This document shows positions 2,514-6,377 of a stretch of DNA of 9,155 bases, one piece after another (position 1 is the stretch's first letter; each line of letters starts with the position of its first letter). The position numbers and the translations under genes were made by a program. The stretch is from Escherichia coli (GTDB lineage Bacteria > Pseudomonadota > Gammaproteobacteria > Enterobacterales > Enterobacteriaceae), in NCBI RefSeq assembly GCF_003334315.1, contig NZ_QOWR01000091.1; one strand, given 5' to 3'. The notes beneath the pieces were generated by a model. The model was given only the letters and a program-made list of their open reading frames with translations, was not told the origin of the DNA and made no database searches.

Positions 2514-3404
2514 TTAATACTCGAGAATGCCGTGCGCGACGGGCAAATAGCGCAGAGAGAAATAGAGAGTGTCTTTACCGCAAGAGGAACGTTTCGCTAA
2601 CAGCGAGGCAATTTCTGCGTCCGGTTTCGGTTTCGCTGTAAAGGTTTTGCCTTTGCCGGCGACAAACAGTTCATAAACAATGCCGCTTGCTGGGGCGGAG
2701 CTTTGGCAATCGGCGCTGGCCTGTAGATAACGTTCACGCTGTTCAGCGGTAAGTTTATCCACGCCGCTGCCATCCTGTACCCAGACATTAACGCCGGTTG
2801 CTTTAACGTGTTCCAGCAGTTGGCGATAGCCATCGGGCGACATGTTTCCGGCGAAAAAACTACTGATATAAACCGGTTTTGCTGAAACATCGCTAATCAG
2901 CCGCTGCTCGTTGTTTAACCATGTTAGCAAAGGCTGACGGGCGGCTTCGCTGCGCCAGTTCAGGTCGTCAATTTCCGCGCTGATGTACCAGCCATCCGGC
3001 GTTACGCCAGGCGCGGCGCTCCATAATCTGGCTTGCTGGAGATCGGCAGCCAGCAGGCGATTAAGATAGCTTTCCAGCGCTGCGGACGACTGTTTCTGGT
3101 GCATAAAAAATTCCGGATCGGCGTTCAGCCCGACAATCAGCTTCAGGCCAGCCTGTTGCGCAGCTGCGGCCCGCTTAAACAATAACGCGCGCTGTTCTGG
3201 CTGGGTGAATGCATCGCCGTAACGGGTCCATTGCAAAACCAGGGTATCGAAGCCTTGCAAACGTAACTGACTCATCAGCCCCTGCCACTGGGTATCGGTA
3301 ACCTGACTATCACGGTTTTGTGGTTGCCAGATAATACCTTTCATCGCAAAGGAAAAAGGGCTGACCAAAAGCAGTGTCAGCAATACGAAAATGAACTTAC
3401 GCAT
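2514..3404 (-). CDS. ybcH: YbcH, secreted (signal-peptide) protein of unresolved function, third gene of the nfrB-nfrA-ybcH operon, 296 aa
   Basis: 296-aa ORF with an N-terminal signal peptide (MRKFIFVLLTLLLVSPFSFA). Its ATG at 3402-3404 directly abuts the nfrA stop codon (TAAATG). Length and sequence match K-12 YbcH as I recall it. Confidence 0.9.
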   Translation of the reverse strand: MRKFIFVLLTLLLVSPFSFAMKGIIWQPQNRDSQVTDTQWQGLMSQLRLQGFDTLVLQWTRYGDAFTQPEQRALLFKRAAAAQQAGLKLIVGLNADPEFFMHQKQSSAALESYLNRLLAADLQQARLWSAAPGVTPDGWYISAEIDDLNWRSEAARQPLLTWLNNEQRLISDVSAKPVYISSFFAGNMSPDGYRQLLEHVKATGVNVWVQDGSGVDKLTAEQRERYLQASADCQSSAPASGIVYELFVAGKGKTFTAKPKPDAEIASLLAKRSSCGKDTLYFSLRYLPVAHGILEY

Positions 3405-6377
3405 TTACCAGTGCACTCCAATGGTGAGAAACGCGTTGTTGCGCTCTCCGTTACGTTGATTAATCGCCTTAAAGGTATGTTGATACTCGACGCCGAGACT
3501 GACTTTGTGCGGCCAGGCGTCGTAGTGCGTCTCGCCGGTCCAGATATTCCAGCGGACCCCGACACCGCCAAGCTGCGCGCCCTGAGTGCCTTTATCACGA
3601 TAGCCGTTGTCCTGAACGTGAGCGTAAGGCTCAATAGTCTGTCCGTTAGCTACCTTCTGATGCCAGCTGACGCGATAATCTGCCGTCCACGCCTGAATAT
3701 CCTGGCGGATATATTGCGCCGCATCGAGGTACAGGTTTTGGGCAAACCAGCCTGAACCGTTCGGGTGCCATTCGTCGCTGTATTTGCCGCCATTAAAGAA
3801 TGAGGCGCTGGCGCGCAGCATGGTATCGGATGCGCCATTTTGCCCGTTCAGCGGCAACTGCTGTTCGACGGCGAGGAAAAAGATCTGATCGCGCAGCGGC
3901 TTCCAGCGTAGACCGGTGCCGGACATCGGATTTTTCACCGGCATCATCACCCCGTTTTCTCCGGTATCGGCAAAGACGCGGCTATAAACTGAGAGCAGGT
4001 CGCCTTCCAGCAGCATATTGCGTCCGATGCGGTACTCGGCTTCCAGTTGCCCGTAGCTACGATAGCTTTTCCCTGGCGCTGCGCCGCCGACATTATTGTT
4101 AGCGGTGCTCATTGCCCCGGAACGCAAGCCGATAGAAGAATCGAAACTGAACGTCCAGTGGCGACCGACCTCCTCATGCAAACGGCGGAAATTGAAGCGT
4201 TGCTGATTTTGCTCTGGGGTCAGTGGGGTTATCAGCGCCTGATTATCAATGTCATCAATCACCAGCCGGGCGTAGTGCTGCGTCGCAGGCATGTCATCCA
4301 GACGCTGGTTCACATAGGCCAGTTGTCGGATCAGTGCCGGATCGTCCGGTAGCCCTTTATGCGCCTGTTCGAGCATTTCCCGCGACTGTGCGATATCACC
4401 GCTATCCCACAAGGCGTAACCAAGCGCTGCCTGGGTGTTGCTATTATTCGGTTCCAGTTCCAGCGCGGCGCGCAAATCACTCACCGCGGCCGGGACATTA
4501 TGACGTTGGCGATAAATTGTCGCCCGCGCAACGTAAGCGTTGGCAGAAGGCGCAATATTGATTGAGCGCGTGAGATCGTTCAGTGCGAGTTCCGGCTGAC
4601 CAGGAATGTAACGTTGCGCATGCAGCCACCAGTAGAGCGCATTGCTTCCCAGTCCACGTTTTTCTGCCTGTTGTAGCCAGCGATCGCGAGCCGCACCATT
4701 TCCTGCCGCCTGGGCGGTATTGGCAGCAGCAAGCAGATCCTCATTGCTCATGTCGTGAAGACTGATTTTCTGCCAGGCCGCCAGTGCGGTGGCGTAGTCC
4801 TCAACCTGATACGCCTGATAGGCTACCGCACGATGTTGCCAGGCGTTCGGTTGTCGTTGTTCGGCCTGAAGCCATGCATACAACGCCACACCGGGTAGCG
4901 TGTCCCGATAACACTTTGCCAGACGGTTCCAGGCGGCGGCATCGTAGGAAGGCGACATATCGCCCAGCAAGCGAACTATTGCCGGGCAATTATCTGCAAT
5001 ACCCGGCAACTGACTTTGCCACTGACGTTGCTCCGCCAGCGGTAAGGGTTTCGATAAAATCGCCACCTTCGCCGGCGTTGCCAGGTAAGGATGACTTTCC
5101 AGCAGAGACGCCAGTCGCGCCATTAAAGTCTGGCTGACACGCGCATCGCCCTGGAAAGGATAGCGTTGCAGCAATAAATCGGCAGCTTCGCGTGACTGCT
5201 CGTTCTGCATCAGTTGCCAGGTCAGTTGATCCAGGCGGGTAAGATTTGCCGGTTCTTGCTGATACAGCAATCGTGCCAGACGCAGAGCTTCAGCCTTGTT
5301 ACGGGTCGCCACGCTGACAGCATAACGCTCCTCAAGCATTTCATTGGCGGGGAGGGTGGCGAGCAGTTTTTGCGCTGCGTCGTACTGACCTTCTTTTAAC
5401 AGCACCGGTAGCGTCGCGCCAACAACATACTGGCGGTTATCGGCAAACTGCACCGTATAATTCGCCAATGCCTGAACGGGGTTGGCGCTGTATTTAGATA
5501 ACAGATAGAGCCAACTTTTCTCTTGTGCGTCCGTGGTAAACAGCGGCTTATTTTCAATGAGATAATGCTGGAGGCGTGCTTTTTCGCCACGATAAGCCAG
5601 CGCGGTCGCGTAAGTAATATATGACTGAGGATCGGTGAAGATCCCCTGTGATTGCAGTGCCAGGATCCGATCGTCCAGCTGCCCGGCAAGAAGCACGTCA
5701 AACCACTGACGGCGTTCTGCCGCGCTTAATGTGTTCTGCTGGCGTGCTTCATTGTATAGCGTATCTGCCTGGGACCATTGTTTCAGGTAGATTGCCCGTT
5801 GCAGCAGATCGGTTCGCAGCGTTTTTCCTTCCGGCGATGCAGCAAACGTCGCATCGTTCAGTTGCGCTCTGGCGACAGGTAACTGTGCCAGCCGCAGGGC
5901 ATTCTGCCCGACTTCACTGCGACAACGCAGGGTCGGCGCAGCATCGCACGCTTTTTGCTGGGCAAGCAGTTCTTCAACAGTCGTAACGCTTTTCACTTCA
6001 ACTGGAATAGCCGCCAGACTGCGCTCAAGTCGGGCATCTCCTGGGTGACGTTTCAGTTGATCCTCCAGCAACAGCCGCGCCCGGTCATCATGACCAAAAT
6101 GGCGATAGGCTTCCGCAAGGTATAAAGTCAGCGGAATATTATCCGGCACCTGCTGGTGTATATATTCAAATTCGCGGATGGCGGTTGCTTCGTCGTTATT
6201 TTTCTGTGCCTTCAGCGCCTTATCGAGACGGGGATAAATAACAAAATGGCGATAATCGCTCAGCCCCAGCTCTTCTGCGCTGGTGCCGATATTGTCTGCG
6301 AGTGCGCTGGTACTCAATAAAGACGTCAGCAGTAAACCAGACCATCCGATGACGCGATTAAGGTTATTCTCCTTCAT
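3405..6377 (-). CDS. nfrA: NfrA, outer-membrane exopolysaccharide export protein (N-terminal TPR-rich periplasmic region plus C-terminal beta-barrel), phage N4 adsorption protein A, 990 aa
   Basis: The track ORF 3405..6398 (997 aa) begins at a TTG. The ATG at 6375-6377 (MKENNLNRVIGWSG...) has a GGAG SD 9 nt upstream and gives the 990-aa K-12 length. Signal peptide ...LSTSALA; C-terminus ends ...FLTIGVHW, an aromatic terminal residue typical of outer-membrane barrels. Confidence 0.92.
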   Translation of the reverse strand: MKENNLNRVIGWSGLLLTSLLSTSALADNIGTSAEELGLSDYRHFVIYPRLDKALKAQKNNDEATAIREFEYIHQQVPDNIPLTLYLAEAYRHFGHDDRARLLLEDQLKRHPGDARLERSLAAIPVEVKSVTTVEELLAQQKACDAAPTLRCRSEVGQNALRLAQLPVARAQLNDATFAASPEGKTLRTDLLQRAIYLKQWSQADTLYNEARQQNTLSAAERRQWFDVLLAGQLDDRILALQSQGIFTDPQSYITYATALAYRGEKARLQHYLIENKPLFTTDAQEKSWLYLLSKYSANPVQALANYTVQFADNRQYVVGATLPVLLKEGQYDAAQKLLATLPANEMLEERYAVSVATRNKAEALRLARLLYQQEPANLTRLDQLTWQLMQNEQSREAADLLLQRYPFQGDARVSQTLMARLASLLESHPYLATPAKVAILSKPLPLAEQRQWQSQLPGIADNCPAIVRLLGDMSPSYDAAAWNRLAKCYRDTLPGVALYAWLQAEQRQPNAWQHRAVAYQAYQVEDYATALAAWQKISLHDMSNEDLLAAANTAQAAGNGAARDRWLQQAEKRGLGSNALYWWLHAQRYIPGQPELALNDLTRSINIAPSANAYVARATIYRQRHNVPAAVSDLRAALELEPNNSNTQAALGYALWDSGDIAQSREMLEQAHKGLPDDPALIRQLAYVNQRLDDMPATQHYARLVIDDIDNQALITPLTPEQNQQRFNFRRLHEEVGRHWTFSFDSSIGLRSGAMSTANNNVGGAAPGKSYRSYGQLEAEYRIGRNMLLEGDLLSVYSRVFADTGENGVMMPVKNPMSGTGLRWKPLRDQIFFLAVEQQLPLNGQNGASDTMLRASASFFNGGKYSDEWHPNGSGWFAQNLYLDAAQYIRQDIQAWTADYRVSWHQKVANGQTIEPYAHVQDNGYRDKGTQGAQLGGVGVRWNIWTGETHYDAWPHKVSLGVEYQHTFKAINQRNGERNNAFLTIGVHW

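What the first reader, a model, noticed from the sequence alone, without database searches (positions are those of the whole stretch)
3402..6377. Tight translational coupling across the nfr operon: 14-bp nfrB/nfrA overlap and a TAAATG nfrA/ybcH junction
The nfrA ATG (6375-6377) and its GGAG SD lie inside the 3' end of nfrB (stop at 6364-6366). The nfrA stop TAA (3405-3407) is immediately followed by the ybcH ATG (3402-3404 on the minus strand). nfrB itself starts with GTG. Such coupling implies fixed stoichiometry of synthase, exporter and the periplasmic partner.
Basis: seen in the sequence. Interest (0 to 1): 0.3.

Follow-up and report, generated by a model that had tools for sequence, protein, structure and literature searches.

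The report
Known nfrB–nfrA–ybcH gene junctions
The three genes of the E. coli nfrB-nfrA-ybcH sugar-polymer export operon do overlap or abut exactly as described, but this layout is already published, is a common kind of bacterial gene junction, and does not show that the three proteins are made in fixed amounts.

Summary
The nfrA ATG (6377-6375, minus strand) lies 14 nt inside nfrB (TAA 6366-6364), with GGAG 7 nt upstream. The nfrA TAA (3407-3405) abuts the ybcH ATG (3404-3402). nfrB starts at GTG 8601.

It is not new. RefSeq K-12 has the same layout. The 14-nt overlap is stated by Junkermeier & Hengge 2021 and is in the title of Kiino et al. 1993. Huber et al. 2023 tabulate both distances (-14 and 0).

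In 49 orthologous operons the junctions are always tight, but the geometry varies. ATGA (4-nt overlap) is the usual nfrB/nfrA form. The 14-nt form occurs only in Escherichia and Citrobacter amalonaticus, and E. albertii has TAAATG. The nfrA/ybcH junction is usually TAATG or TGATG. The ybcH Shine-Dalgarno sits in nfrA's fourth-last codon, a Gly that is GGA or GGG in 50/50 loci.

The "fixed stoichiometry" reading is not supported:
- No hairpin hides either internal ribosome site, and nfrA's site is unusually open.
- nfrB has a GTG start and a weak site.
- -14 lies outside the spacing range best for coupling.
- YbcH looks like a periplasmic glycoside hydrolase and is dispensable for N4 infection.

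Some coupling is likely but untested. This is an ordinary, known feature.

The parts
6364..8601 (-). nfrB coding sequence (745 aa): inner-membrane GT2 glycosyltransferase activated by c-di-GMP through an MshEN domain
   Evidence: ORF. NCBIfam NF008411 scores 1332 bits and the c-di-GMP motif NF053729 also matches. 99.6% identical to K-12 b0569.
8599..8601 (-). nfrB GTG start codon, with a weak AAGG Shine-Dalgarno at 8612-8609
   Evidence: Sequence. It is the only in-frame start after the upstream TAA. It aligns with ATG in 28 orthologs and is GTG only in Escherichia and C. amalonaticus; SD energy is -3.9 kcal/mol.
6364..6377 (-). 14-nt nfrB/nfrA overlap (ATGAAGGAGAATAA): nfrA ATG 6377-6375, nfrB TAA 6366-6364
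   Evidence: K-12 annotation, and published in PMC8669469 and Huber 2023 Suppl. 3.
6385..6388 (-). GGAG Shine-Dalgarno of nfrA, inside nfrB codons Leu-Glu (CTG GAG), 7 nt before the ATG
   Evidence: Duplex energy is -5.9 kcal/mol, about the 5th percentile of in-frame positions. The region is highly accessible: opening cost 6.9 kcal/mol, 6th percentile.
3405..6377 (-). nfrA coding sequence (990 aa): signal peptide, TPR repeats and a C-terminal outer-membrane beta-barrel (NfrA_C)
   Evidence: NCBIfam NF007302 aligns 1-990 of 990. Homologs carry Pfam TPR families and PF13283. The N-terminus MKENNLNRVIGWSGLLLTSLLSTSALA looks like a signal peptide.
3402..3407 (-). TAAATG junction: nfrA stop 3407-3405 abuts ybcH start 3404-3402 (0-nt gap)
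   Evidence: K-12 annotation and Huber 2023 Suppl. 3, distance 0.
3416..3419 (-). GGAG Shine-Dalgarno of ybcH, formed by NfrA codons Gly987 (GGA) and Val988 (GTG), 11 nt before the ATG
   Evidence: This Gly codon is GGA or GGG in 50/50 loci, against a mean 30% GGR at other Gly codons of the same genes.
2514..3404 (-). ybcH coding sequence (296 aa): DUF4434, exported, predicted glycoside-hydrolase-like TIM barrel

Best explanation
This is the already characterised E. coli nfrBA-ybcH operon, a c-di-GMP-controlled, synthase-dependent exopolysaccharide system that phage N4 exploits. Its junctions are ordinary compact stop/start junctions in which each downstream ribosome-binding site is written into the last codons of the upstream gene. 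Shown here: the exact geometry (-14 and 0 nt), the SD motifs, conservation of tight junctions across the gene family, and codon-level conservation of the ybcH SD. Inferred: ribosomes finishing nfrA can restart at the adjacent ybcH ATG, which is the favourable spacing for termination-reinitiation. nfrA has ATG, a well-spaced GGAG and an unusually open start region, and it sits 11 nt behind the nfrB stop. It is therefore translated largely by its own initiation, with at most partial help from ribosomes translating nfrB. The 14-nt overlap is a lineage-specific variant (Escherichia and C. amalonaticus) of an ancestral 4-nt ATGA overlap, and nothing points to a special role for it. The arrangement ensures co-expression from one mRNA. 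It does not set a fixed protein ratio.
For: - Identity and annotation.
- Operon status, FliA-dependent low expression and the published 14-bp overlap.
- Geometry in orthologs: nfrB/nfrA is ATGA in 33 of 44 loci and 14 nt in 6 (Escherichia and C. amalonaticus, including K-12 and ET670). It is 0 in E. albertii and one Burkholderiaceae MAG, 1 nt in 2, and a 1-nt gap in Pragia. nfrA/ybcH is a 1-nt overlap in 36 of 49, no gap in 10, and a 4-nt overlap in 3.
- The ybcH SD codon is GGA/GGG in 50/50 loci against 30% expected, even in genomes with 4-8% GGR.
- Start regions are less structured than the coding body: mean z +0.64 for nfrA and +0.97 for ybcH.
- In E. coli the cost of opening the start region is 6.9 kcal/mol for nfrA (6th percentile), 11.2 for ybcH (36th) and 15.1 for nfrB (76th).
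- Single-sequence folds are not unusual: z 0.37 and -1.33.
- No internal promoter-like site precedes nfrA or ybcH on the coding strand.
- Literature: coupling is best at -4..+3 nt and falls as overlap grows; distances of -8..+10 nt are treated as predictive of reinitiation.
Against: - No direct measurement of coupling, translation rates or protein ratios for these genes was found.
- Predicted accessibility is a thermodynamic estimate on arbitrary windows, and the real 5' end of the mRNA is unknown.
- The ybcH SD spacing (11 nt) is long, so its independent initiation may be weak and its dependence on nfrA translation stronger than I assume.
- The unbroken conservation of tight junctions could reflect stronger functional coupling than I credit.
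- It could equally be inertia, because a ribosome site embedded in the upstream gene is hard to separate from it.
Confidence: 0.6

Rival explanations
1. One reading: both junctions enforce tight, obligatory translational coupling, so NfrB, NfrA and YbcH are made in a fixed stoichiometry as subunits of one trans-envelope machine.
For: Stop/start overlap or abutment with the SD inside the upstream gene. Every ortholog keeps a tight junction. Short-distance pairs are enriched 4.5-fold for subunits of heteromeric complexes in E. coli. Some betaproteobacterial nfrA starts have ATGA with no detectable SD (for example Silvimonas, +1.2 kcal/mol), which suggests reliance on reinitiation there.
Against: The -14 spacing is outside the efficient range. 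The nfrA start region is open and has a good SD and ATG, whereas nfrB has GTG, a weak SD and a more structured start region. No sequestering hairpin is predicted. Coupling efficiency varies widely between gene pairs and does not by itself give equimolar output. YbcH is hydrolase-like and dispensable for N4 infection. Huber 2023 scored both pairs 'CMPLX not'. NfrA is detected by mass spectrometry and NfrB is not (a weak argument).
Confidence: 0.12
2. Neutral compaction: the overlaps are by-products of stop-codon drift in a gene-dense genome. Each gene initiates independently, and the junction geometry has no regulatory meaning.
For: The geometry is labile between close relatives: E. coli -14, E. 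albertii 0, most others -4. The NfrB C-terminal tail encoded in the overlap is not conserved as protein. After loss of a stop, the next stop in a random frame is expected about 21 codons on, so 14 nt needs no special explanation (inference). Both start regions are open, as at independent starts.
Against: None of 44 to 49 diverged operons, down to about 31% NfrA identity, has drifted to a gap of more than 1 nt, whereas most E. coli co-directional pairs lie at more than +20 nt. The codon-level conservation of GGA in nfrA's fourth-last codon shows selection on the embedded ribosome site, though that fits independent initiation too.
Confidence: 0.25
3. Mis-called start: nfrA really begins elsewhere (for example TTG 6398-6396 or a downstream codon), so the overlap length is different.
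For: An in-frame TTG exists 21 nt upstream.
Against: The TTG has a poor SD (-2.7 kcal/mol) and is absent in C. amalonaticus, which keeps the ATG and the 14-nt overlap. The NCBIfam model aligns 1-990 from the ATG. Downstream starts would truncate the signal peptide. The TTG would in any case lengthen the overlap rather than remove it.
Confidence: 0.03

Closest known systems
E. coli K-12 nfrBA-ybcH operon (b0569-b0568-b0567; Kiino et al. 1993; Junkermeier & Hengge 2021; Sellner et al. 2021)
   Same: It is the same locus. Window 1477-8743 is collinear with K-12 at 98.9% identity with no gaps. Gene lengths, the 14-nt overlap and the 0-nt junction are identical. The overlap is stated in the paper.
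   Different: Only the strain context differs. There is no DLP12 prophage, appY or ompT between argU and envY. An ISAs1 element replaces the cusS end upstream, and IS1 lies at the left edge.
Classical translationally coupled pairs (trpE-trpD at -1 nt; galT-galK and rplK-rplA at +3 nt)
   Same: The nfrA/ybcH junction (0 nt, SD inside the upstream gene) falls in the same -4..+3 nt class where coupling is most efficient.
   Different: Coupling has been demonstrated experimentally for those pairs and has not been tested here. The nfrB/nfrA junction at -14 nt is outside that class.
ATGA / TGATG overlapping gene pairs (termination-reinitiation class of Huber et al. 2019 and 2023)
   Same: Most nfr orthologs use exactly these motifs: ATGA at nfrB/nfrA, and TAATG or TGATG at nfrA/ybcH.
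   Different: The E. coli versions are the less common derivatives (-14 and 0). Huber 2023 lists both pairs as not known to form a complex.
Synthase-dependent exopolysaccharide operons (pgaABCD, bcs, alg, pel)
   Different: The c-di-GMP receptor is an MshEN domain rather than PilZ or an I-site-like pocket. The proposed polymer is ManNAc-based. The YbcH family (DUF4434) is uncharacterised.

Membership tests
E. coli nfrBA-ybcH operon | Orthologous sequence and gene order nfrB-nfrA-ybcH on one strand | tested here: met
   98.9% nucleotide identity to K-12 over 7,267 nt with no gaps. The annotation is identical. NCBIfam equivalog models score above cutoff for all three proteins.
Termination-reinitiation coupled gene pair (Huber 2019/2023 operational class) | Co-directional neighbours with a stop-to-start distance of -8 to +10 nt | tested here: met
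   Applies to nfrA/ybcH only: the distance is 0 nt.
Termination-reinitiation coupled gene pair (Huber 2019/2023 operational class) | The same distance criterion applied to nfrB/nfrA | tested here: not met
   The distance is -14 nt, outside -8..+10. Most orthologs (-4) would meet it.
Termination-reinitiation coupled gene pair (Huber 2019/2023 operational class) | Downstream translation falls when upstream translation is blocked, independent of transcription | not testable with these tools
   This needs reporter fusions with premature stop codons. No such data were found in the literature searched.
RNA-unfolding type coupling (f1 gene VII/IX, MS2 coat/lysis type) | The downstream ribosome site is sequestered in a stable structure that the upstream ribosome must melt | tested here: not met
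   MFE z-scores against shuffles are 0.37 and -1.33. Start windows are less stable than coding-body windows across 42 loci (mean z +0.64 and +0.97). The nfrA opening cost is at the 6th percentile.
Synthase-dependent exopolysaccharide secretion system | Processive GT2 synthase with a c-di-GMP receptor domain | tested here: met
   NF008411 and the MshE-related c-di-GMP motif NF053729 match. Binding was shown experimentally by Junkermeier & Hengge.
Synthase-dependent exopolysaccharide secretion system | Outer-membrane TPR plus beta-barrel exporter | tested here: met
   Homologs carry TPR Pfam families and PF13283. TPR matches are found in PDB chains. The description in PMC8669469 agrees.
Synthase-dependent exopolysaccharide secretion system | Periplasmic polymer-processing enzyme (hydrolase or lyase) | tested here: inconclusive

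The most novel reading that the evidence does not exclude
Across the whole Nfr family the junctions may be under selection as a translational relay. The ybcH SD is hard-wired into the Gly codon of the conserved C-terminal G-x-x-W motif of the NfrA barrel (GGA/GGG in 50/50 loci). In some Betaproteobacteria nfrA has an ATGA overlap with no SD at all. In those organisms the exporter and the hydrolase could be made only by ribosomes that have just finished the preceding gene. That would be an obligate synthase-to-exporter-to-hydrolase order of synthesis, which the Escherichia lineage has partly relaxed by evolving the -14 overlap with an open, SD-driven nfrA start.
Probability: 0.25. Interest if true: 0.3.

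Novelty: already known. Interest (0 to 1): 0.12.

Why it matters
It matters little beyond housekeeping. People engineering tags or deletions in nfrB must avoid the last 25 nt or so, which carry the nfrA ribosome site; Junkermeier & Hengge already designed their FLAG insertion around this. Deletions of nfrA must likewise spare its last 20 nt or so, which carry the ybcH ribosome site. The comparative result is a tidy example of dual coding: tight junctions are conserved family-wide, and an SD is fixed inside the C-terminal motif of an outer-membrane protein. It does not open a new question. If the operon really were obligatorily coupled, it would be a convenient natural model for how synthase-dependent polysaccharide machines balance their parts.

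Tried and rejected
- **Quantitative expression data.** Li et al. 2014 and Kiino et al. 1993 are not held. The Burkhardt 2017 supplements do not list these genes, and no Saito 2020 supplements are held. The kasugamycin translatome lists only ybcH. The Mori 2021 proteome detects NfrA at about 2.5e-5 mass fraction, scores NfrB as 0 and omits YbcH. None of this yields a ratio.
- **A regulatory RNA structure at the junctions.** Single-sequence folds are not better than shuffles. Across orthologs the start regions are less structured than the coding body. Rfam finds only the tRNA.
- **An internal promoter or terminator that would uncouple the genes.** No sigma-70-like site precedes nfrA or ybcH on the coding strand, and terminator-like hits are within about two standard deviations of the shuffle expectation (13 found against 8.4 ± 2.6).
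- **An alternative nfrA start (TTG 6398).** Rejected on SD strength, conservation and model alignment.
- **Programmed frameshifting to make an NfrB-NfrA fusion.** I considered this because fusion proteins appear in databases. Their odd lengths and their VgrG, Rhs or PAAR domains point to deletions and rearrangements, and I saw no slippery heptamer in the overlap. It was not pursued further.
- **A FliA (sigma-28) promoter upstream of nfrB.** I looked by eye and found no convincing match, and left it.
- **A genome-wide count of -14 overlaps in K-12.** Not attempted, because it would need about 90 annotation calls. I relied on the published distributions instead.
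Full report
**What the window is.** The 9,155-nt window is E. coli chromosome and is 100% identical to several complete genomes. On the minus strand it carries, in order:
- nfrB, 6364-8601, 745 aa
- nfrA, 3405-6377, 990 aa
- ybcH, 2514-3404, 296 aa
- envY

The neighbours are argU tRNA-Arg on the plus strand and fimZ. Window 1477-8743 is collinear with K-12 MG1655 at 98.9% identity without gaps. NCBIfam equivalog models name the three proteins. They are NfrB (c-di-GMP-activated glycosyltransferase with an MshE-type motif), the phage receptor NfrA (aligned 1-990 of 990) and the DUF4434 protein YbcH (aligned 1-296 of 296).

**Check of the observation.** Reading the minus strand confirms every coordinate.
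- The nfrA ATG is 6377-6375 and the nfrB TAA is 6366-6364. The genes share 14 nt, ATGAAGGAGAATAA.
- GGAG lies at 6388-6385, 7 nt before the nfrA ATG.
- The nfrA TAA (3407-3405) is directly followed by the ybcH ATG (3404-3402).
- The ybcH GGAG lies at 3419-3416, 11 nt upstream of that ATG.
- nfrB starts at GTG 8601-8599, three codons after an in-frame TAA, behind a weak AAGG.
- That GTG is the only in-frame start there. It aligns with ATG in 28 orthologs and is GTG only in Escherichia and Citrobacter amalonaticus.
- The K-12 RefSeq coordinates give the same -14 and 0 spacings.

**Is it new?** No.
- Junkermeier & Hengge 2021 (PMC8669469) state that nfrB overlaps nfrA by 14 nt (Fig. 1B).
[quoted passage not shown] The paper itself is not held.
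- Huber et al. 2023, Supplementary file 3, lists nfrB-nfrA at -14 and nfrA-ybcH at 0. Both are scored as not known to form a complex.

**Is it more than chance?** A single tight junction is not.
- E. coli has 820 co-directional pairs at -8..+10 nt against 1,630 at more than +20 nt.
- The two SDs score -5.9 kcal/mol, only about the best 5% of in-frame positions in nfrA.
- After loss of a stop codon, the next stop in another frame is expected within about 20 codons. An extension of about 10 nt from the ancestral -4 to the present -14 therefore needs no special explanation (inference).

**Comparative evidence.** I collected 49 loci encoding NfrA relatives from Enterobacterales, Aeromonas, several Betaproteobacteria and Frateuria. 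Every locus long enough to show it keeps the order nfrB-nfrA-ybcH.

| Junction | Geometry | Loci |
|---|---|---|
| nfrB/nfrA (44 loci) | ATGA, 4-nt overlap | 33 |
| | 14-nt overlap (Escherichia spp. and C. amalonaticus) | 6 |
| | No gap (E. albertii TAAATG; one Burkholderiaceae MAG) | 2 |
| | 1-nt overlap | 2 |
| | 1-nt gap (Pragia) | 1 |
| nfrA/ybcH (49 loci) | TAATG or TGATG, 1-nt overlap | 36 |
| | No gap | 10 |
| | GTGA, 4-nt overlap | 3 |

Three conclusions follow.
- Tightness is conserved down to about 31% NfrA identity, but the exact geometry is not.
- The 14-nt form is a derived, lineage-specific state.
- The NfrB tail encoded in the overlap is not conserved as protein.

**A conserved dual-coding site.** The ybcH SD is formed by the Gly codon in NfrA's conserved C-terminal G-x-x-W motif together with the first base of the next codon.
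- That Gly codon is GGA (46 loci) or GGG (4 loci) in all 50 loci.
- GGR makes up on average 30% of the other Gly codons in the same genes, and only 4-8% in the GC-rich genomes.
- Neighbouring synonymous sites vary freely.
- The naive product probability is about 1e-28. It is not corrected for phylogeny, but the divergence is deep enough for the conclusion to stand: the embedded ribosome site is under selection.

**Mechanism: what supports coupling and what limits it.** The layout permits coupling. At nfrA/ybcH the 0-nt spacing lies in the -4..+3 nt range where coupling is most efficient. The long 11-nt SD spacing may also make independent initiation weaker there. At nfrB/nfrA several points argue against tight coupling:
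- Spacing of -14 is outside the -8..+10 class, and growing overlap lowers coupling steeply.
- The junction folds are no more stable than shuffles (z 0.37 and -1.33).
- Across 42 loci, 70-nt windows around both internal starts are less structured than coding-body windows (mean z +0.64 and +0.97).
- In E. coli the cost of opening -18..+10 is 6.9 kcal/mol at nfrA (6th percentile of 206 background positions). It is 11.2 at ybcH (36th percentile) and 15.1 at nfrB (76th percentile).

nfrA therefore has ATG, a well-placed SD and an open site, while nfrB has GTG, a weak SD and a more structured site. That predicts NfrA output that does not track NfrB one-to-one. Some Betaproteobacteria have ATGA with no SD before nfrA, for example Silvimonas at +1.2 kcal/mol. 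Reinitiation may be essential in those organisms.

**On "fixed stoichiometry".**
- Coupling efficiency varies by orders of magnitude between gene pairs, so proximity does not fix a ratio.
- No usable quantitative data exist for these proteins. In one absolute proteome NfrA is detected at about 2.5e-5 mass fraction, NfrB is not detected and YbcH is not listed. Membrane-protein bias makes this weak evidence.
- YbcH is DUF4434. A confident AF2 model (pLDDT 91.9) is a (beta/alpha)8 barrel.
- Glu144 and Glu245 are invariant and sit at the ends of strands 4 and 7, which is the clan GH-A arrangement.
- YbcH is dispensable for N4 infection and only partly needed for the motility phenotype. An accessory enzyme fits better than a stoichiometric subunit.

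**Verdict.** The arrangement is a documented, ordinary operon feature. Partial translational coupling, especially nfrA to ybcH, is plausible but untested. The inference of fixed stoichiometry is not supported. The only modestly new points are comparative: tight junctions across the family, ATGA as the common form, the Escherichia-specific -14 overlap, and a codon-level-conserved SD inside the C-terminal motif of NfrA.

Noticed in passing
window 1448-1570 (argU tRNA-Arg 1448-1524, envY stop at 1570): tRNA-Arg(TCT) argU lies directly next to envY. This strain lacks the whole DLP12 cryptic prophage, together with appY and ompT, which sit between argU and envY in K-12. Homology to K-12 resumes at window 1477, at the right end of DLP12 (K-12 position about 586,054). 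This looks like an unoccupied argU attachment site.
   Followed up: partly
window 8744-9155 (minus strand); also window 61-435 (plus strand): Upstream of nfrB, homology to K-12 stops 8 bp short of the cusS stop. An ISAs1-family transposase 3' end follows in place of cusS (NF033564, 4e-23). The left edge of the window carries the C-terminal half of an IS1 transposase (NF033558). The nfr-envY-fimZ block is therefore bracketed by IS elements in this strain. The 142 nt of nfrB upstream sequence shared with K-12 is retained.
   Followed up: partly
window 2514-3404 (ybcH): YbcH (DUF4434, called a putative scaffold in the literature) models confidently as a TIM barrel. Its structural neighbours are all glycoside hydrolases, including the PgaB hydrolase domain. 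It has invariant Glu144 and Glu245 at the ends of strands 4 and 7. It is probably the periplasmic glycosidase of the Nfr polysaccharide system.
   Followed up: partly
nfrB/nfrA region in other E. coli (proteins P0003, P0007, P0017, P0091; locus L052): Public E. coli proteins include NfrA fused to VgrG, PAAR or Rhs domains, or to truncated NfrB. About 6-7% of complete genomes lack the nfrB/nfrA junction region (5068 of 5426 have it), and about 4% lack the nfrA/ybcH one. In strain 214-4, nfrB is replaced by Rhs, ISAs1 and IS5, with the breakpoint inside nfrA codon 8 (window about 6356). The locus is often broken in nature, possibly under phage selection.
   Followed up: partly
window 8599-8612; loci L005-L049: nfrB uses GTG with a weak AAGG SD only in Escherichia and C. 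amalonaticus, the same lineages that have the 14-nt overlap. 28 other orthologs use ATG at the homologous position.
   Followed up: yes
loci L016, L017, L019, L022, L025, L030, L048 (Jeongeupia, Silvimonas, Sheuella, Polynucleobacter, a beta MAG): Several betaproteobacterial nfrA starts overlap the nfrB stop (ATGA or TGATG) but have no detectable SD, with duplex energies from about -2.4 to +1.2 kcal/mol. Their ybcH starts keep a strong GGAGG. This suggests SD-independent reinitiation at the first junction in those organisms.
   Followed up: no
window 573-1268 (minus strand): The mechanical ORF for fimZ is 231 aa, but the FimZ family model and the RefSeq annotation start at residue 22 (210 aa). 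The upstream ATG is probably not used.
   Followed up: no
K-12 cusR-cusS, just upstream of nfrB (Huber 2023 Suppl. 3): The neighbouring cusR-cusS pair overlaps by 11 nt. Overlaps longer than 8 nt are therefore not unusual even in this immediate neighbourhood.
   Followed up: no
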